A stretch of DNA of 18,400 nt, taken from a virus (taxonomy: Duplodnaviria > Heunggongvirae > Uroviricota > Caudoviricetes). The stretch's first letter is position 1; each line of letters starts with the position of its first letter. The position numbers and the translations under genes are program-made. The DNA lies in the IMG/VR virus record IMGVR_UViG_2718218131_000010, positions 1 through 18,400 of that record. The stretch is one strand, 5' to 3'. This document shows positions 8,831 through 15,427 of the stretch, piece after piece. The notes under the pieces are model-generated. The model was not told where the DNA came from. It saw nothing but the letters and a program-made list of their open reading frames with translations, and made no database searches.

Positions 8831-8847
8831 ATTGCTCTAATGTATTG
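8831..8847 (+). promoter_or_regulatory. C1 repressor operator-like site upstream of lpa (ATTGCTCTAATGTATTG)
   Basis: 13/17 match to the P1 C1 operator consensus ATTGCTCTAATAAATTT, including the invariant ATTGCTCTAAT core. Confidence 0.6.
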
Positions 8848-8917: not shown

Positions 8918-9370
8918 ATGTTACTTAACTGGCAGGGACGCCACTTCATGGAAATAAATCACTCACGAATAACATCGTACGAGATTGCGGATTACATGAT
9001 CCGCACTAAATCTCTTCTATCAGCGAAAGAACTCGCAGCAATTCTTGAAAAGGAATACCCGCATCTGGATGTCGATAAGCGCGATGTTTATCTGCGCTTA
9101 AAGGCTATCGCTGTGTCTAAGTATTCGTCTGTTTTGATTGATGACAGTACACGCCCACGTAGATTTCAGATCCACTCTCTGAATCCTGAATTCTTTCGCC
9201 GCAGCCGCGCTCCGCGCCGGTTTGATGAAAAACTCCAGAACGAACTCTATATGACGCAGGACGAAAAGGAACGCCGGGAGCACCAGCCTTGGGTAATGGC
9301 GCGTCAACTTTTCAATAAGGTGGCCCGTCAGCACCGTCATTACGGTAATGCCACATCCGCACGTATCTGA
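8918..9370 (+). CDS. lpa: Lpa, late promoter activator
   Basis: 150-aa ORF directly preceded by a C1 operator and followed by pacA, as in P1; AGGTGA RBS before ATG 8918. Confidence 0.75.
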   Translation: MLLNWQGRHFMEINHSRITSYEIADYMIRTKSLLSAKELAAILEKEYPHLDVDKRDVYLRLKAIAVSKYSSVLIDDSTRPRRFQIHSLNPEFFRRSRAPRRFDEKLQNELYMTQDEKERREHQPWVMARQLFNKVARQHRHYGNATSARI

Positions 9371-9380
9371 TTGATTGCTT

Positions 9381-9399
9381 GCCCGTTCCGGGCCTTTTG
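9381..9399 (+). terminator. putative rho-independent terminator after lpa
   Basis: GCCCG-TTC-CGGGC stem-loop followed by CTTTTG. Confidence 0.4.
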
Positions 9400-9455
9400 A
9401 CATGTGACTTTCGTTACCCTCGCGTCAAAAAGAGTTTTTACGAAAGGAAGCATAA

Positions 9456-10649
9456 GTGACCTGGGACGATCACAAGAAGAATTTTGCTCGCCTGGCGCGA
9501 GATGGTGGTTACACCATCGCACAGTATGCCGCCGAGTTTAATCTTAACCCTAATACCGCACGTCGTTATCTCCGTGCCTTCAAAGAAGACACCAGGACTA
9601 CGGACAGCCGCAAGCCAAATAAGCCAGTCAGGAAGCCACTAAAAAGCATGATCATTGATCACTCTAATGATCAACATGCAGGTGATCACATTGCGGCTGA
9701 AATAGCGGAAAAACAAAGAGTTAATGCCGTTGTCAGTGCCGCAGTCGAGAATGTGAAGCGCCAAAATAAGCGCATAAATGATCGTTCAGATGATCATGAC
9801 GTGATCACCCGCGCCCACCGGACCTTACGTGATCGCCTGGAACGCGACACCCTGGATGATGATGGTGAACGCTTTGAATTCGAAGTTGGCGATTACCTGA
9901 TAGATAACGTTGAAGCGCGGAAGGCCGCGCGCGCTATGTTGCGTCGGTCCGGGGCCGATGTTCTGGAAACCACTCTTCTGGAAAAGTCTCTTTCTCATCT
10001 CCTTATGCTGGAGAATGCCAGGGATACGTGTATTCGCCTGGTGCAGGAAATGCGCGATCAGCAAAAAGACGATGATGAAGGTACTCCGCCTGAATACCGT
10101 ATCGCGAGCATGCTAAACAGCTGTTCCGCGCAGATAAGCAGCCTGATCAACACCATTTACAGCATCCGGAATAACTATCGAAAAGAAAGCCGGGAGGCGG
10201 AAAAGCACGCTTTGTCTATGGGGCAAGCTGGCATTGTTAAGCTGGCATACGAACGAAAGCGTGAAAATAACTGGTCAGTGCTGGAAGCAGCTGAATTCAT
10301 CGAGGCGCATGGCGGGAAAGTTCCGCCCCTGATGCTGGAGCAAATCAAAGCCGATCTGCGTGCTCCTAAGACCAATACCGATGATGAGGAAAGGCAGACA
10401 GCCGTCGGCGGCCCTTCTCTTGAAGATCTGGACAAAGTTGCGCGAGAACGGGCCGCCAACCGCCGCGCCGATGCCGCATTGTGGATTGAGCAGCGTAGGG
10501 AAGAAATCGCCGATATCGTTGATACAGGCGGTTATGGAGATGTTGATACTGAAGGTGTATCAAACGACCCATGGCTGGAACAAGACCTGGACGAAGACGA
10601 GGAGGAAGACGAAGAAGTTACCCGCAAGCTATACGGGGATGATGATTAA
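9456..10649 (+). CDS. pacA: PacA, terminase small/pac-recognition subunit
   Basis: 397 aa; contains the pac site internally; acidic C-terminal tail; GTG start with AAGGAAG RBS. Confidence 0.9.
9649..9807. other. pac packaging site: 4 + 3 TGATC(A/G) hexamers with Dam GATC cores
   Basis: TGATCA at 9649, 9656, 9668, 9683 and TGATCG/TGATCA at 9779, 9791, 9802 inside pacA; matches the known bipartite P1 pac architecture. Confidence 0.85.
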
Positions 10650-12133
10650 TGGCCAGAAGTTGCGTAACGGATCCACGTTGGCGCGAGCTGGTGGCGCTAT
10701 ATCGTTATGACTGGATTGCGGCCGCTGATGTTTTGTTTGGGAAGACACCAACCTGGCAGCAGGATGAGATCATTGAGTCCACGCAGCAGGACGGCAGTTG
10801 GACAAGTGTGACCTCCGGCCATGGTACTGGTAAGTCGGATATGACGAGTATCATTGCAATACTCTTCATCATGTTTTTCCCCGGCGCTCGCGTCATTCTG
10901 GTCGCTAACAAAAGACAGCAAGTCCTTGATGGTATTTTCAAATATATAAAGAGCAATTGGGCTACTGCTGTTAGCAGATTCCCGTGGTTGTCGAAGTATT
11001 TCATTCTTACAGAAACGTCTTTTTTTGAGGTGACTGGCAAGGGTGTTTGGACAATATTGATAAAGTCCTGTCGCCCCGGAAATGAGGAGGCGTTGGCTGG
11101 TGAACACGCCGATCATCTCTTGTATATCATCGACGAAGCGTCGGGTGTGAGTGATAAAGCATTCAGTGTGATAACAGGTGCGCTGACCGGTAAGGATAAC
11201 CGTATTCTGCTTCTTTCCCAGCCTACGCGACCTTCAGGCTATTTCTACGATTCACACCACAGACTAGCTATTCGCCCGGGAAATCCTGATGGATTGTTTA
11301 CTGCGATAATACTGAATAGTGAAGAATCTCCGCTTGTAGATGCAAAATTTATACGAGCAAAACTTGCGGAGTATGGCGGTCGTGATAACCCCATGTACAT
11401 GATCAAAGTACGTGGTGAATTTCCCAAATCTCAAGATGGCTTTCTTCTTGGTCGTGATGAGGTTGAGCGGGCGACGCGGCGAAAGGTCAAGATTGCCAAA
11501 GGATGGGGCTGGGTTGCATGTGTTGACGTTGCTGGTGGCACAGGACGAGATAAGTCCGTTATTAATATCATGATGGTGTCCGGCCAGCGAAATAAACGCC
11601 GTGTAATCAACTATCGTATGCTGGAATACACAGACGTTACAGAAACGCAGTTAGCCGCCAAGATTTTCGCAGAATGTAACCCAGAACGGTTCCCGAACAT
11701 AACCATAGCTATTGATGGCGATGGCTTGGGGAAATCGACGGCTGATCTGATGTACGAACGCTATGGTATTACCGTCCAGCGTATCCGCTGGGGTAAAAAG
11801 ATGCACAGCCGTGAAGATAAAAGCCTTTATTTCGATATGCGCGCTTTCGCGAATATTCAGGCGGCAGAAGCTGTAAAATCAGGGCGTATGCGGCTTGATA
11901 AGGGGGCTGCGACTATAGAGGAAGCATCAAAGATACCGGTCGGGATAAATTCCGCAGGTCAATGGAAGGTGATGTCAAAGGAAGATATGAAGAAAAAACT
12001 CAACCTGCACTCACCGGACCATTGGGATACATATTGTTTCGCTATGTTGGCGAACTATGTACCCCAAGATGAAGTGCTTAGCGTCGAAGACGAAGCGCAG
12101 GTTGATGAAGCTCTGGCATGGCTTAATGAGTAA
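10649..12133 (+). CDS. pacB: PacB, terminase large subunit
   Basis: 494 aa; start overlaps the pacA stop (TAATG); position and size as in P1. Confidence 0.9.
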
Positions 12134-12136
12134 AAA

Positions 12137-12153
12137 CTTGCTCTAATAAATTG
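12137..12153 (+). promoter_or_regulatory. C1 operator-like site (CTTGCTCTAATAAATTG)
   Basis: 15/17 match to the C1 operator consensus; sits 4 bp after the pacB stop at the head of the antirepressor module. Confidence 0.65.
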
Positions 12154-12154
12154 T

Positions 12155-12310
12155 GTTTTTTTGGCTGCCGATGTTACATTGAACCTGAACTCTTGCGCCT
12201 TGAGGCATTTTCGGTTTATGCTTATCAGGCACCTCATTAAAACGGGTGCCGGGATTGGAACCCCGGATAATGCAAAAGGCGACACAGACGCCAAAAGCGT
12301 CTTTTTTTGT
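12155..12310 (+). ncRNA. candidate C1-controlled small RNA or leader segment ending at an intrinsic terminator
   Basis: No ORF; contains GGCUGCC (12164-12170) and a hairpin CCGGG-AUUGGAAC-CCCGG (12249-12266); ends with GACGC-CAAAA-GCGTC followed by T7 (12287-12308). Confidence 0.3.
12287..12308 (+). terminator. rho-independent terminator (GACGCCAAAAGCGTC + TTTTTTT)
   Basis: 5-bp GC stem, 5-nt loop, 7 T run; flanked by GACACA / TGTGTC extending the stem. Confidence 0.6.
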
Positions 12311-12339
12311 GTCATGCCATCGCACAGCCATACGTAGCA

Positions 12340-12493
12340 CATAGCTCCGAGATCAATGGTAGTGCTGGCTGGGCTGCCGAAAGGCAGGCCGGTTCCCTTT
12401 TGCGCCGGTAGTTCCAACCCAGTCAGTGCTACCGCCATTGAGATTGGAACCTCACGCGGTAGCTCCTAAAGTTAGCAAAAGGAGGCTGCCATT
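12340..12493 (+). promoter_or_regulatory. structured leader upstream of the icd-like ORF with anti-SD and kissing-loop elements
   Basis: Local hairpin CUGCC-GAAA-GGCAG (12373-12387); hairpin CGGTAG...CTACCG with GUUCCAAC in its loop (12405-12435); second AUUGGAACC (12443-12451); GGCUGCC overlapping the SD GGAGG (12481-12490). Confidence 0.4.
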
Positions 12494-12715
12494 ATGGCTA
12501 CTATCCCTACCCCAACTCACCCTGAATTTATCTGGCGCTTTTACTCCTGCCAGAAACGTCACTATCACTTCGTTATCGCAACAACAGAAGATGAGGCCCG
12601 CTCTCAGCTTCCTGACGCCCCATGTATTTTCTCTGCCCGTTTTTCCACTGATTCACGCAATTCTCTCAGTTACTGGTGCCTCCCTGTTAACGCTTCTGCT
12701 CAGGAGGGACTATGA
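12494..12715 (+). CDS. small ORF translationally coupled to the antirepressor (icd-like position)
   Basis: 73 aa; GGAGG 8 nt upstream; stop TGA overlaps the ant ATG (ATGA), the same coupling architecture as icd-ant in P1 immI. Confidence 0.45.
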   Translation: MATIPTPTHPEFIWRFYSCQKRHYHFVIATTEDEARSQLPDAPCIFSARFSTDSRNSLSYWCLPVNASAQEGL

Positions 12716-13824
12716 GAACGTCATTAGTCACCCGTGAAGAGATGATCGAGGCAATTGAACGGCACACTGCCTGTATCAGTACCAGGGATATACCGGGCGT
12801 TATTGCCAACTACTTCATGATCACCAAACAACTTTACCGGAGAAAGGACAAGAACGCGGTTCACCGCATCCTGCTAACCGATATCCGTGAATACCTGCTC
12901 GAACAGGGTCATCTGAATTACGCAACCGTCGCAGCCGAAGCACGCAAGGAGGCACACAGAATGAAAGCAACTAACGTTAAATCAGAAAAAATTCATGCAC
13001 CTTCAGTTCAGGAATCGGAACTGGTGGTTGTTCAGAATCAGCCGGATGAAATTCCCGTTCTGGAATGGCAGGGAGTACGTGTCGTGACAACCGAAACTCT
13101 TGCTAGAGGGTATGGGGTCGATGAAGCCAATATTCGCAACAATTTGTCTCGCAACCTTGACCGCTTTGAAGAAGGTAAGCATTACTTTCTTCTAACTGGT
13201 TTAAAATTAAGAGAATTTAAGAACAGAGTAACCGGAAGTTACTCTGTTGGTAAGAACGCCAGAAGCCTTACACTCTGGACAGAGCGCGGCGCTGCACGCA
13301 TGTCTAAGATCGTGGACACAAATGAAGCATGGGCATTCTTTGAAAAACTGGAAGACAGCTACTTCCGGCAAAAAGAACAGCAACCGGTTGCAATCCCCCA
13401 GACGCTTCCAGAAGCTCTGCGCCTGGCTGCCGAACTGGCTGAACAAAAGCAGCTTCTGGAACAGAAAGCCCACCAGCTAAATCAGCAGCTGGTGGCCGCC
13501 GCTCCTAAAGTCGATTTTGCCGACCGGGTATCAGTAGCTAAAGGGATCCTGATTGGGAATTTTGCAAAGGTTGTTGGACTTAAGCAAAACGCGCTGTTTG
13601 CCTGGTTACGGGAGAACGGCATCCTGATAGCGTCCGGTGGACGTAAAAATGTGCCGTTCCAGCAGTACATCAATGCGGGGTATTTCACGGTGAAAGAAGT
13701 GGTGCTGGATGATGAAGATGGCTACCAGATACGGTTGACGCCTCAATTAACGGGTAAAGGCCAGCAGTGGTTGACGCGTAAACTGCTCGATGCTGGCTTG
13801 TTAAAACCGGTGGCGGCTGAATAA
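12712..13824 (+). CDS. phage antirepressor (Ant-like; ORF6N N-terminal and KilA-C/ANT C-terminal domains)
   Basis: 370 aa; VRVVTTETLARGYGVDEANIRNNLSRNLDRFEEGKHYF...LTLWTERGAARMSKIVDTNEAWAFFEKL (ORF6N-like) and FAKVVGLKQNALFAWLRENGIL...VPFQQYINAGYFTVKE (KilA-C/ANT-like). Confidence 0.75.
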   Translation: MRTSLVTREEMIEAIERHTACISTRDIPGVIANYFMITKQLYRRKDKNAVHRILLTDIREYLLEQGHLNYATVAAEARKEAHRMKATNVKSEKIHAPSVQESELVVVQNQPDEIPVLEWQGVRVVTTETLARGYGVDEANIRNNLSRNLDRFEEGKHYFLLTGLKLREFKNRVTGSYSVGKNARSLTLWTERGAARMSKIVDTNEAWAFFEKLEDSYFRQKEQQPVAIPQTLPEALRLAAELAEQKQLLEQKAHQLNQQLVAAAPKVDFADRVSVAKGILIGNFAKVVGLKQNALFAWLRENGILIASGGRKNVPFQQYINAGYFTVKEVVLDDEDGYQIRLTPQLTGKGQQWLTRKLLDAGLLKPVAAE

Positions 13825-13833
13825 TGGAAGAAT

Positions 13834-13862
13834 GCCCGGTTGATGCCGGGCATAATTTATTG
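13834..13862. terminator. convergent terminator hairpin between ant-like gene and c1
   Basis: GCCCGG-TTGATG-CCGGGC followed by ATAATTTATT; overlaps the c1 stop codon region. Confidence 0.5.
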
Positions 13863-14708
13863 CGCGCTTTCGGGGTTGTCGTTTACTGGCTGCCCCTTCT
13901 TGGTTTTACGGCTGCGCGTAACTGATGCGGCTGACTTAACCTTTTTCTCTTCGCGAGTGATGGCAATTTGTTTTTTTACATTTTCAATATCTGCCAGGCG
14001 ATATATTTTTGCTTGCGGCCAGCGGTCGCAGATGATCGGTTCTATGGAGTCATAAAGGCTAAATTTTGCTTTTTCGAATTCACCGTTGATGATAATTCCA
14101 TCACGGAGAGTTTCATCGCAGATAAACACGCCACACAGTGGCACATGGTAACTAACTGATTTACCATCATTGTAGTTAGGGCTACTGGAAATGTAGTGGA
14201 CGCGCAGCATTGTTTCGCTAAAGCCGTGTACGCGCATACGGAATTTTTCATCCTCCGGGTACTGCTTCATTAGCTCTTTTGTTGCTTCCAGGTTCTCTAT
14301 GTATTTCGCACTGTGCTCATTGATCCCCGCGCTTTTTTGGATGCGAATGTCCTTATCAATCAGATGAATAATGCGGCCAGCGGTCATGTTGACGCTGTTC
14401 ACAGCTTCTGTCTGATAAGTTGTAACCTTACGCACACCGCGAAGGATGTTAGGCACAGGATATAAAATAGTCTTTGGGATATTGAGATCTGGGTACTGTT
14501 CCAGTTCCCGCGCCATTAAAGTCCATTTATCAATTTCTGCCTGAATGCTGTCCGTTTCTTTGAACGGCAGAACGACAACCGGGCGTACAGGACGACCGTC
14601 GCTGGCGGCATCAACGTGTTGGGCGCGTGCAACAGCTTTTTTTAGAAAGAGATCCCTGAAGCTGACGAACTCCTGGTACAGTTGTTCGCCGTAGACATAA
14701 TTTATCAT
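13857..14708 (-). CDS. c1: C1 repressor of lysogeny
   Basis: 283 aa MINYVYGEQLYQEFVSFRDLFLKK... matches P1 C1 as recalled; multiple C1 operators in the vicinity. Confidence 0.95.
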   Translation of the reverse strand: MINYVYGEQLYQEFVSFRDLFLKKAVARAQHVDAASDGRPVRPVVVLPFKETDSIQAEIDKWTLMARELEQYPDLNIPKTILYPVPNILRGVRKVTTYQTEAVNSVNMTAGRIIHLIDKDIRIQKSAGINEHSAKYIENLEATKELMKQYPEDEKFRMRVHGFSETMLRVHYISSSPNYNDGKSVSYHVPLCGVFICDETLRDGIIINGEFEKAKFSLYDSIEPIICDRWPQAKIYRLADIENVKKQIAITREEKKVKSAASVTRSRKTKKGQPVNDNPESAQ

Positions 14709-14802
14709 TGATCCTCCTCCAGAATTGACATGGCCAACAACTCACAGCGGATAACACTGAGAGTTGTTGGGCACCATTATAGAAGGATCTAACGAAAATA
14801 AT

Positions 14803-14819
14803 AGATTTATTAGTGCATT
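14803..14819 (-). promoter_or_regulatory. C1 operator-like site between coi and c1
   Basis: Minus-strand AATGCACTAATAAATCT, 14/17 match to the consensus. Confidence 0.5.
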
Positions 14820-14821
14820 TA

Positions 14822-15028
14822 TTATGAGTCTGGCTGGTTAGTGGTCATGAGATATTCAATTGTGTCAGTGAGATCATCTAGGTCGTCGGGGGTGATACGG
14901 TACTCCTGATTGGATATCTTTGAGTAGTGTTCAGCAATGGCGCGAGCAGCGTCGGTTTCGGTGGGATCTACAGATAAAGCGTTAGAGCAATGTCTAACGT
15001 CGTCGATAGTTGGTGGAATGAAAGCCAT
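14822..15028 (-). CDS. coi: Coi, C1 inactivator
   Basis: 68-aa acidic ORF immediately upstream of c1 on the same strand, as in P1 immC. Confidence 0.8.
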   Translation of the reverse strand: MAFIPPTIDDVRHCSNALSVDPTETDAARAIAEHYSKISNQEYRITPDDLDDLTDTIEYLMTTNQPDS

Positions 15029-15250
15029 AATTATGCCTCACTGTATTTACAACACAGAGCCTGAAGCTCTGACCTACTGTTTCACCCATGATCCATGCTG
15101 GGGTTATCTAACAACATTGCGCTGTGTGTAAGATGAGCAATGCATAGCTGTAATGCCCTGTTTGCTCATTTCCTTCTGAGCCGCTCTACAACACTGAAGA
15201 CACATTAAATAGTGAATCCAAAGTCGTATTACGAAACGGCGGCAAAGCTA

Positions 15251-15267
15251 TAATTTATTAGAGCAAT
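15251..15267 (-). promoter_or_regulatory. C1 operator (Op99-type), minus orientation
   Basis: Reverse complement ATTGCTCTAATAAATTA, 16/17 match. Confidence 0.65.
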
Positions 15268-15333
15268 TGTCAAACAACTATGAAAAACAATCCAGTTTTT
15301 GGCTGGTGGAGTGGGATTTTACTCTCAAAATTT

Positions 15334-15350
15334 ATTGCTCTAATGATTCT
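15334..15350 (+). promoter_or_regulatory. C1 operator-like site (ATTGCTCTAATGATTCT)
   Basis: 14/17 match with intact ATTGCTCTAAT core; lies in the imcA/imcB control region between coi and loxP. Confidence 0.55.
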
Positions 15351-15393
15351 TGATTTTTGTGCGCAGCTGGACGTAAACTCCTCTTCGGACCTA

Positions 15394-15427
15394 ATAACTT
15401 CGTATAGCATACATTATACGAAGTTAT
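15394..15427. other. loxP site-specific recombination site
   Basis: Exact ATAACTTCGTATA-GCATACAT-TATACGAAGTTAT (13-bp inverted repeats and 8-bp spacer). Confidence 0.98.

What the first reader, a model, noticed from the sequence alone, without database searches (positions are those of the whole stretch)
12155..12500. Repeated complementary loop elements suggest an antisense/kissing-loop translational switch for the antirepressor
Two short motifs recur on the plus strand together with their complements. GGCUGCC occurs at 12164, 12372 and 12484, the last overlapping the Shine-Dalgarno of the small ORF. AUUGGAAC(C) occurs at 12254 and 12443, the first in the loop of a CCGGG/CCCGG hairpin. The complement GGCAG sits in a GAAA-tetraloop hairpin at 12383, and GUUCCAAC sits in the loop of a CGGTAG/CTACCG hairpin at 12411. 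An intrinsic terminator at 12287-12308 separates the upstream copy set from the leader. This resembles the a1/b1, a'/b', a2/b2 arrangement of the P1 c4 antisense RNA, but the sequences are not recognisably c4.
Basis: seen in the sequence. Interest (0 to 1): 0.65.

Follow-up and report, generated by a model that had tools for sequence, protein, structure and literature searches.

The report
Second c4 antisense immunity module
The repeated complementary motifs are real and belong to a well-known kind of phage switch, a P1-type c4 antisense RNA with its upstream IsrK-like decoy RNA, which controls translation of a cell-division inhibitor and an antirepressor; here it sits as an extra cassette in a P1-like plasmid prophage.

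Summary
The finding is real but ordinary. Rfam finds a full-length C4 antisense RNA at 12352-12439 (76.7 bits, cut-off 45) and an isrK RNA at 12229-12307 (62.4 bits, cut-off 50).

The true complementary sets are:
- a1 AUUGGAAC (12254), a' GUUCCAA (12411), a2 AUUGGAAC (12443)
- b1 GCAAAAGG (12272), b' CCUUUUGC (12396), b2 GCAAAAGG (12475); b2 overlaps the Shine-Dalgarno sequence of an icd homologue

Its GGCUGCC/GGCAG set is not an interaction set.

Across 73 distinct related modules, a1/a'/a2 and b1/b'/b2 co-vary three ways, with at least 16 a alleles and about 30 b alleles. The closest relative, JL22, differs from the window by a compensated 2-nt swap in all three a sites.

The module is a 1724-bp cassette (12134-13857) inserted between pacB and c1 of a P1-like phage-plasmid. 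It holds a C1 operator, an IsrK-like RNA, c4, icd and ant. Relatives keep the canonical immI locus as well.

Most likely mechanism: c4 blocks icd translation and, through translational coupling, ant. The IsrK-like RNA carries decoy sites that relieve the block.

Verdict: a new member of a known kind, of low to moderate interest.

The parts
12137..12153 (+). C1-repressor operator-like site (CTTGCTCTAATAAATTG), the counterpart of P1 Op51/Oc4
   Evidence: It has 2 mismatches to the P1 operator consensus. The window holds 6 such sites against 0.07 expected. It sits in the same position as Oc4 in P1 immI. Binding by C1 is inferred.
12151..12180 (+). Putative C1-controlled promoter: -35 TTGTGT at 12151-12156, extended -10 TGtTACATT at 12172-12180. 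Counterpart of P1 P51a.
   Evidence: Read from the sequence by alignment with P1 (TGcTATCTT). The strict consensus scan did not call it. Inferred.
12193..12222 (+). Putative promoter of the IsrK-like RNA: -35 TTGCGC, 18-nt spacer, -10 TATGCT, +1 near G12229
   Evidence: The position is conserved in D6 (TTGCGC/TATATT) and F039 (TTGACT/TATATT) upstream of the isrK model start. It matches the consensus weakly and was not called. Inferred.
12229..12309 (+). IsrK-family small RNA (the a1/b1 element): hairpin 1 at 12229-12249, hairpin 2 at 12250-12265, single-stranded linker, terminator at 12286-12309
   Evidence: Rfam RF01394 scores 62.4 bits against a cut-off of 50, full length. A sub-threshold c4-a1b1 RF03163 match covers the same hairpins (23.1 bits, E 0.0012). 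Fold, terminator.
12254..12261 (+). a1 site AUUGGAAC, in the 8-nt loop of hairpin 2
   Evidence: It is 7/7 complementary to a' here and in 72 of 73 distinct modules, across at least 16 alleles. The equivalent pairing was shown by compensatory mutations in Gifsy-1 (PMC4825925).
12272..12279 (+). b1 site GCAAAAGG, in the single-stranded linker before the terminator
   Evidence: The b1:b' run is at least 8 in 67 of 73 modules, against a permuted mean of 5.1.
12358..12436 (+). c4 antisense RNA. These are the predicted mature ends, by alignment with the 77-nt P1 c4. The covariance-model match spans 12352-12439.
   Evidence: Rfam RF01695 scores 76.7 bits against a cut-off of 45. MFE is -46.6 kcal/mol, z = -5.7, and the fold matches the Rfam fold. 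95.2% of cells are paired and 17 pairs show compensatory changes. The mature ends are inferred.
12396..12403 (+). b' CCUUUUGC, in the loop of c4 hairpin 2
   Evidence: cognate duplex -12.4 kcal/mol.
12411..12417 (+). a' GUUCCAA, in the single-stranded junction of the c4 multiloop
12439..12454 (+). a2 hairpin: UGAG stem, loop AUUGGAAC (a2, 12443-12450), CUCA stem
   Evidence: Fold. The stem covaries in 38 leaders. The a2:a' run is at least 7 in 71 of 73 modules.
12456..12463 (+). Third conserved leader element GCGGUAGC, complementary to the c4 3' arm and tail GCUACCGC (12428-12435)
   Evidence: The cognate mean run is 7.95 against a permuted mean of 7.25 (maximum 7.64 in 500 permutations). Its role is unknown. 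It may be an alternative pairing in the unprocessed transcript.
12475..12485 (+). b2 site GCAAAAGG (12475-12482), overlapping the Shine-Dalgarno AAGGAGG (12479-12485) of icd
   Evidence: b2 abuts or overlaps the Shine-Dalgarno sequence in essentially all 73 modules.
12494..12715 (+). icd homologue (73 aa)
   Evidence: 80% identical to P1 Icd. Matches NCBIfam phage_ICD_like.
12712..13824 (+). Antirepressor (370 aa). Its start overlaps the icd stop (ATGA). An internal Ant2-like start lies at 12961, preceded by AAGGAGG.
   Evidence: 57% identical to P1 Ant1, with conserved N and C termini. Pfam finds ORF6N and ANT/KilAC domains. The overlap is read from the sequence.
13831..13852 (.). Hairpin ATGCCCGG/CCGGGCAT between the convergent ant and c1 genes; possibly a bidirectional terminator
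   Evidence: Read from the sequence. Not tested.

Best explanation
The region 12134-13857 is a self-contained P1 immI-type immunity cassette inserted between pacB and c1 of a P1-like plasmid prophage.

Proposed mechanism:
1. Transcription starts upstream of 12229. One promoter probably overlaps a C1 operator.
2. Most transcripts stop at the terminator 12286-12309. This gives an IsrK-family small RNA of about 80 nt. It displays site a1 in a hairpin loop and site b1 in a single-stranded linker.
3. Read-through transcripts contain the c4 RNA (12358-12436). This is a tRNA-like three-helix fold that is probably cut out by RNase P.
4. The single-stranded a' and b' of c4 pair with a2 (12443-12450, in a hairpin loop) and b2 (12475-12482) in the leader.
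5. The b2 duplex covers the Shine-Dalgarno sequence of icd, so icd is not translated.
6. Because ant starts within the icd stop codon (ATGA), ant is not made either. The C1 repressor therefore stays active.
7. The IsrK-like RNA carries the same a and b sequences as the target. It acts as a competitor for c4, in cis within the read-through transcript and in trans as the short RNA, and so relieves the block.
8. The a and b sequences set the immunity specificity. This copy is orthogonal to the canonical P1/P7 immI.

Shown here: family membership, the RNA fold, the complementarities and their covariation, and gene homology.
Inferred: the promoters, C1 control, RNase P processing, the translational block, and the decoy role.
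For: Family membership and fold:
- Rfam C4 and isrK both score above their gathering cut-offs, full length.
- The c4 fold has z = -5.7, with a' and b' unpaired.
- 17 compensatory pairs support the fold in 17 distinct sequences.

The complementary sites:
- In 73 distinct modules, a1:a' is 7/7 in 72, a2:a' is at least 7 in 71, b1:b' is at least 8 in 67, and b2:b' is at least 8 in 68. Permuted means are 5.1, 5.1 and 6.1.
- Cognate duplex energies are -8.8 and -12.4 kcal/mol. Non-cognate values are about -2 to -7.
- JL22 differs from the window by a compensated GA-to-AG swap in a1, a' and a2.

Genes and layout:
- icd is 80% and ant 57% identical to the P1 genes.
- The layout matches the annotated P1 immI: Oc4, P51a/b, a1, b1, c4, a2, b2, icd, ant1/2.

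Outside support:
- In Gifsy-1, mutations in the IsrK middle hairpin are compensated by mutations in the downstream RNA, and IsrK supplied in trans activates translation of the coupled ORF and antirepressor (PMC4825925).
Against: - There are no expression data for this element.
- The promoters match the sigma-70 consensus poorly, and the scan called none.
- The IsrK-like RNA on its own is not unusually stable (z = -1.4).
- In Gifsy-1, co-expression of the downstream RNA did not weaken the effect of IsrK as a simple titration model would predict (PMC4825925).
- Loop-to-junction pairings are pseudoknotted, so cofold could not score the whole complex.
Confidence: 0.88

Rival explanations
1. P4-type control. 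The c4-like RNA acts mainly by causing premature transcription termination when it pairs with the flanking sites, as P4 CI RNA does with seqA and seqC. It does not act by blocking translation.
For: C4 and the P4-type RNAs are related (Rfam clan CL00128). The authors of the IsrK paper themselves compared IsrK with P4 seqA and the downstream RNA with CI (PMC4825925). A terminator lies between the a1/b1 sites and c4.
Against: b2 overlaps the Shine-Dalgarno sequence in essentially every module. The downstream genes are icd and ant, homologues of the P1 genes, with the coupled ATGA arrangement. From my own knowledge (Biere, Citron and Schuster 1992, not read here), termination in P1 is a secondary, Rho-dependent consequence of the translational block.
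Confidence: 0.07
2. The region encodes small proteins rather than RNAs. Candidates are the 'ash family protein' ORF at 12356-12469, as annotated by PGAP, or the ORF at 12131-12337 annotated in JL22. On this view the repeats are incidental.
For: PGAP annotates 12356-12469 as an ash family protein in identical plasmids. Its translation matches Pfam PF10554 at 31.8 bits against a cut-off of 26.
Against: The ORF that starts at the conserved AUG ranges from 14 to more than 117 codons among 61 distinct c4 sequences. The c4 length varies by single nucleotides, from 81 to 88 nt, and P1 has in-frame stops. The substitutions are compensatory base-pair changes and three-way changes in the a and b sites, which a coding constraint does not explain.
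Confidence: 0.03
3. The motif recurrence is a chance feature of an intergenic region and has no function.
For: Each motif alone is only weakly unusual in the whole window. AUUGGAAC occurs 2 times against 0.66 expected, and 27 of 200 shuffles reach that count.
Against: The joint pattern of two copies plus a complement has P of about 0.01-0.02. The covariation across 73 modules cannot arise by chance. The Rfam E-values are 1e-11 to 1e-14.
Confidence: 0.01

Closest known systems
Bacteriophage P1/P7 immI locus (Oc4, P51a/b, a1, b1, c4, a2, b2, icd, ant1/2)
   Same: The order of every element is the same. The c4 fold is the same. a' and b' pair with a2 and b2, and the downstream site covers the icd ribosome-binding site. 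Upstream a1 and b1 copies are present. Icd has 73 aa and is 80% identical. Ant1 is 57% identical, with an internal Ant2-like start. A C1 operator lies at the left end.
   Different: The a and b sequences differ: UUGGAAC and GCAAAAGG here, against UUGACAG and GUUAGUG in P1. The a1/b1 element matches Rfam isrK rather than c4-a1b1. a2 sits in a hairpin loop 4 nt after c4 rather than abutting it. The middle of Ant carries an ORF6N domain. The cassette lies between pacB and c1 rather than next to sim/kilA/repL, and it co-exists with the canonical locus in relatives.
Gifsy-1 isrK-orf45-anrP locus of Salmonella (IsrK sRNA and the processed RNA STnc1160)
   Same: It has an IsrK-family RNA with its own terminator and read-through into a processed RNA of about 80 nt. 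A small ORF is translationally coupled to an antirepressor. The IsrK middle-hairpin loop pairs with the downstream RNA.
   Different: In the window the small ORF is an Icd homologue, separate from c4. The Gifsy-1 paper never names the downstream RNA as c4. The host element is a P1-like plasmid prophage, not a lambdoid prophage. No AntQ-type antiterminator target is evident here.
Satellite phage P4 immunity (CI RNA with seqA and seqC)
   Same: A processed, tRNA-like antisense RNA is flanked upstream and downstream by complementary sites. It belongs to the same Rfam clan as C4.
   Different: P4 CI acts by transcription termination on an untranslated leader. Here the downstream site covers a ribosome-binding site, and the regulated genes are icd and ant.

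Membership tests
C4 antisense RNA (Rfam RF01695) | Covariance-model score at or above the curated gathering score, full length | tested here: met
   76.7 bits against 45, model positions 1-87 of 87.
C4 antisense RNA (Rfam RF01695) | A long outer stem enclosing two hairpins, supported by covariation | tested here: met
   The MFE fold equals the Rfam fold, z = -5.7. 95.2% of cells are paired, 17 pairs have compensatory changes, and 0 of 500 shuffles reach this.
C4 antisense RNA (Rfam RF01695) | Single-stranded a' and b' are complementary to a2 and b2 in the leader of the downstream operon, and the downstream site covers the ribosome-binding site | tested here: met
   a':a2 is 7 bp. b':b2 is 8 bp and overlaps AAGGAGG. 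Both covary in 73 modules.
C4 antisense RNA (Rfam RF01695) | Lies upstream of translationally coupled icd and ant genes | tested here: met
   Icd is 80% and Ant1 57% identical to the P1 proteins. The ATGA overlap is at 12712-12715.
C4 antisense RNA (Rfam RF01695) | Processed from a longer transcript by RNase P to about 77 nt | not testable with these tools
   The sequence is consistent with this: U at -1, G at +1, and a GCCA tail after the acceptor-like stem. The requirement itself is from my own knowledge (Hartmann et al. 1995, not read here).
C4 antisense RNA (Rfam RF01695) | Represses ant and confers immunity specificity in vivo | not testable with these tools
   Indirect only. Allele-specific three-way covariation and diagonal-dominant duplex energies.
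isrK Hfq-binding RNA (Rfam RF01394) | Covariance-model score at or above the gathering score, with two 5' hairpins and a Rho-independent terminator | tested here: met
   62.4 bits against 50, model positions 1-77 of 77. Terminator, fold.
isrK Hfq-binding RNA (Rfam RF01394) | Read-through into a small ORF coupled to an antirepressor; the middle-hairpin loop pairs with the downstream RNA | tested here: met
   The architecture matches. a1:a' is 7/7 in 72 of 73 modules. The pairing was shown experimentally only in Gifsy-1.
isrK Hfq-binding RNA (Rfam RF01394) | Binds Hfq and activates translation in trans | not testable with these tools
   No data for this element.
c4-a1b1 motif (Rfam RF03163) | Covariance-model score at or above the gathering score | tested here: not met
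   23.1 bits against 46.7 (E 0.0012 in a 461-nt search) at 12216-12269. P1 itself scores 51 bits. The two hairpins are shared, with a1 in the second loop, so the window's element works like c4-a1b1 but is filed under isrK.

The most novel reading that the evidence does not exclude
The IsrK family and the P1 a1/b1 element are the same device: a terminated small RNA that mimics the mRNA target of c4 and so acts as an anti-antisense RNA. On this reading, c4 modules form a large combinatorial specificity system, with at least 16 a alleles and about 30 b alleles that reassort freely. This lets one phage-plasmid carry two or more orthogonal RNA-gated antirepressor switches. A third covarying leader element (12456-12463), complementary to the 3' arm of c4, would add a cis-acting folding switch that the P1 and Gifsy-1 sources available here do not describe.
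Probability: 0.45. Interest if true: 0.5.

Novelty: new member of a known kind. Interest (0 to 1): 0.27.

Why it matters
For this window it settles the annotation. The intergenic stretch holds two known RNA genes, which PGAP currently renders as an 'ash family protein'. The 'extra ant' noted between pacB and c1 in P1-like resistance plasmids is a complete second immI module with its own RNA specificity.

More generally, the comparison links two literatures that do not cite each other in the papers I could read: P1 c4 and Salmonella IsrK. It also shows how diverse and modular the a/b recognition code is. That is useful for predicting heteroimmunity among P1-like phage-plasmids, which spread resistance genes. 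It may also be useful as a set of orthogonal RNA switches.

Tried and rejected
- RNAcofold of c4 with the leader, or with the IsrK-like RNA, gave uninformative values. Loop-to-junction pairings are pseudoknots that cofold cannot form. I replaced it with duplex energies of the segments.
- A genome-contig scan with the isrK hairpin pattern GGTGYCGGGATTNNNNNCCCG was too unspecific. Only 5 of the 120 returned stretches had a c4 downstream: Brenneria, E. albertii, a marine bacterium and two others.
- The same pattern worked on viral contigs. 105 of 119 loci had a c4 within 420 nt.
- The sigma-70 consensus scan found no promoter. The promoter assignments rest only on alignment with P1, D6 and F039.
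- An SD-sequestering hairpin (12458-12467 with 12480-12490) appears in the single-sequence fold. RNAalifold did not recover it as a consensus in 38 leaders, so I do not claim it.

Full report
**What the window is.** Megablast places the 18.4-kb window in P1-like phage-plasmids (genus Punavirus). The best match is phage JL22 at 96%, followed by P1, P7, RCS47 and SJ46. The gene order is pacA (9456-10649), pacB (10649-12133), the region under study, then c1 (13857-14708, minus strand), coi and cre.

A direct comparison with P1 shows that window 9001-12133 and 13858-15410 are collinear with P1 at 96-98% identity. The 25 bp between the pacB and c1 stop codons of P1 are replaced here by 1724 bp, 12134-13857. 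The finding lies at the left end of this cassette.

**Check of the observation.**
- AUUGGAAC occurs only at 12254 and 12443.
- GGCTGCC occurs at 12163, 12372 and 12484, with four further copies elsewhere in the window.
- The terminator is found at 12286-12302 with a U-run.
- I scanned 12134-12500 without bias for words present twice with their complement on the same strand. At k=7 this returns only UUGGAAC and GCAAAAGG. Shuffles give a mean of 0.27 such words, P about 0.01.

**Identity.** Rfam at gathering thresholds reports C4 antisense RNA at 12352-12439 (76.7 bits, cut-off 45) and isrK at 12229-12307 (62.4 bits, cut-off 50). Both matches are full length. The statement that the sequences are not recognisably c4 is therefore wrong.

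The predicted mature c4 (12358-12436) folds at -46.6 kcal/mol (z = -5.7) into the Rfam structure. GUUCCAA (a') is single-stranded in the multiloop junction and CCUUUUGC (b') is in the loop of hairpin 2.

I built a covariance model from five c4 sequences. It found a c4 about 55 nt upstream of the icd homologue in all but two of 80 IMG/VR loci retrieved with the Icd-like protein, and one of those two has no upstream sequence. On that alignment 95.2% of cells pair and 17 of 27 pairs show compensatory changes. No shuffle or slid register comes close.

**Comparison with P1.** The P1 record annotates Oc4 (Op51), P51a, P51b, a1, b1, c4, a2, b2, icd and ant1/ant2, in that order. The window has the same order:

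| Element | Window coordinates | Sequence or note |
|---|---|---|
| Operator-like site | 12137-12153 | 2 mismatches to consensus; 6 such sites in the window against 0.07 expected |
| a1 | 12254-12261 | AUUGGAAC |
| b1 | 12272-12279 | GCAAAAGG |
| Terminator | 12286-12309 | |
| c4 | 12358-12436 | b' at 12396-12403, a' at 12411-12417 |
| a2 | 12443-12450 | AUUGGAAC |
| b2 | 12475-12482 | GCAAAAGG; overlaps the Shine-Dalgarno AAGGAGG |
| icd homologue | 12494-12715 | 73 aa, 80% identical to P1 Icd |
| Antirepressor | 12712-13824 | 370 aa, 57% identical to P1 Ant1 |

- The ant start overlaps the icd stop (ATGA).
- Ant has conserved termini, an ORF6N domain in the middle and a KilAC domain.
- An internal Ant2-like start lies at 12961.
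- P1's own a1/b1 region matches Rfam c4-a1b1 (51 bits). The window's a1/b1 region matches isrK and gives only a sub-threshold c4-a1b1 hit over the same two hairpins (23.1 bits). The two Rfam families therefore describe variants of one element.

**Covariation between molecules.** The four first relatives already show it.

| Element | a1/a2 | a' | b1/b2 | b' |
|---|---|---|---|---|
| Window | UUGGAAC | GUUCCAA | GCAAAAGG | CCUUUUGC |
| JL22 and D6 | UUGAGAC | GUCUCAA | GCAAAAGG | CCUUUUGC |
| F039 | UUAGGAC | GUCCUAA | CAAUCGAGG (b1), CAAUCAAGG (b2) | CCUUGAUUG |
| P1 | UUGACAG | CUGUCAA | GUUAGUG | CACUAAC |

JL22 is 94% identical to the window over the leader, yet it differs by the same 2-nt swap in all three a sites.

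A scan of viral contigs for the isrK hairpin gave 119 loci, of which 105 have a c4 within 420 nt. Among 73 distinct modules:
- a1:a' is 7/7 Watson-Crick in 72.
- a2:a' is at least 7 in 71.
- b1:b' is at least 8 in 67.
- b2:b' is at least 8 in 68.
- Permuted pairings average 5.1, 5.1 and 6.1.
- b2 always abuts the Shine-Dalgarno sequence.
- There are at least 16 a alleles and about 30 b alleles, and they reassort. All four combinations of two a and two b alleles occur among the close relatives.

Segment duplex energies are strongest on the diagonal. For the window, a' with a2 is -8.8 kcal/mol, against -2.3 on JL22's a2. b' with b2 is -12.4, against -4 to -7 on non-cognate sites.

**The GGCUGCC set.**
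- The copy at 12484 belongs to a constant GGAGGCUGCCAUUAUGGCU block. It is kept even where c4 hairpin 1 is CCGAC/GUCGG.
- The copy at 12372 is part of the c4 stems.
- The copy at 12163 lies in the putative promoter spacer and reads AGCTACC in JL22.
- GGCAG is the 3' arm of the GAAA-capped hairpin 1.
- None of these copies covaries with another, so the set is not an interaction set.

**Mechanism.** By homology with P1 (partly from the annotated record, and partly from my own knowledge of Citron and Schuster 1990 and Biere et al. 1992, which I could not read here), c4 pairs with a2 and b2 and occludes the icd ribosome-binding site. This prevents ant expression, which depends on icd translation.

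The Gifsy-1 study (PMC4825925) supplies the other half:
- The short IsrK RNA activates translation of the coupled small ORF and antirepressor.
- Mutations G28A and G31A in the IsrK middle hairpin are compensated by C162U and C159U in the downstream RNA.
- An RNA of about 80 nt (STnc1160) is processed from the read-through transcript.
- Read against the present alignment, that helix is a1:a' and STnc1160 is the local c4. This mapping is my inference.
- That paper compares the system with P4 seqA/CI and does not mention P1 c4.
- A paper on APSE phages notes that c4 and isrK occur together but does not link them mechanistically (PMC7313666).

I therefore propose that the 12229-12309 RNA is a target mimic that titrates c4 or refolds the precursor. 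This step is inferred. One Gifsy-1 result does not fit simple titration.

**Context and prevalence.**
- JL22, RCS47, vB_EcoM-673R5 and D6 carry both the canonical immI and this second module.
- JL22's canonical copy uses UUGACAG and GAUUGUG, so its two switches are orthogonal.
- The insertion of 'two short orfs and ant' between pacB and c1 has been noted for pTZ20_1P and RCS47, without any mention of the RNAs (PMC6906374).
- The leader matches 465 of 5426 complete E. coli genomes, mostly on plasmids. It is 100% identical in pSLK172-1 and several chicken isolates.
- The cassette also occurs on Salmonella and Klebsiella plasmids.
- A few GenBank records already annotate both ncRNAs, for example the Stx2 phage F039.

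**Verdict.** The feature is a new, uncharacterised member (a specificity allele and a second genomic site) of a kind known since 1990. Interest is low to moderate. The value lies in correcting the annotation and in the link between IsrK and the c4 a1/b1 sites.

Noticed in passing
window 12356-12469 (+): PGAP annotates this stretch as an 'ash family protein' in identical plasmids, and its translation matches Pfam PF10554 Phage_ASH (31.8 bits). It is the c4 RNA gene read as protein. The ORF length from the conserved AUG varies from 14 to more than 117 codons among 61 c4 variants, and P1 has in-frame stops. So the Pfam family probably models, at least in part, a translated RNA gene.
   Followed up: partly
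window 12456-12463 and 12428-12435: The leader segment GCGGUAGC, between a2 and b2, is complementary to the 3' arm and tail of c4 (GCUACCGC). It covaries with that arm across modules: cognate mean run 7.95 against a permuted mean of 7.25, maximum 7.64 in 500 permutations. It could be an alternative pairing in the unprocessed transcript. No annotation in the P1 record covers it.
   Followed up: partly
L005 1282-1308 (P1 record 48282-48308): Canonical P1 immI also has a terminator-like hairpin with a U-run (ACCGCA...TGCGGTATTTTT) between b1 and c4. P1 may therefore also make a short a1/b1 RNA analogous to IsrK. The record does not annotate one.
   Followed up: no
L003 2613-2692 (phage D6): A second, weaker c4-like match (44.7 bits with my model) lies about 470 nt upstream of D6's main c4. 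It has its own complementary site (TGGAACA) just downstream. Locus L010 likewise has two c4 copies 1.5 kb apart, and one IMG/VR contig carries two P1-type modules in opposite orientation (L072 and L080).
   Followed up: no
window 13831-13852: An 8-bp hairpin ATGCCCGG/CCGGGCAT lies in the 33 nt between the convergent ant and c1 stop codons. It may be a bidirectional terminator that stops ant transcription from running antisense into c1.
   Followed up: no
window 12484-12499: The block GGAGGCUGCCAUUAUGGCU is nearly invariant across otherwise diverse modules. It forms a small GCCA/UGGC hairpin around the start codon in the RNAalifold consensus, with some compensatory changes.
   Followed up: partly
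window 8831-8847, 11345-11361, 14803-14819, 15251-15267, 15334-15350: Five further C1-operator-like sites (1-3 mismatches) are present. The positions upstream of lpa and around c1/coi fit known P1 operators. The one inside pacB (11345, minus strand) is unexplained.
   Followed up: no
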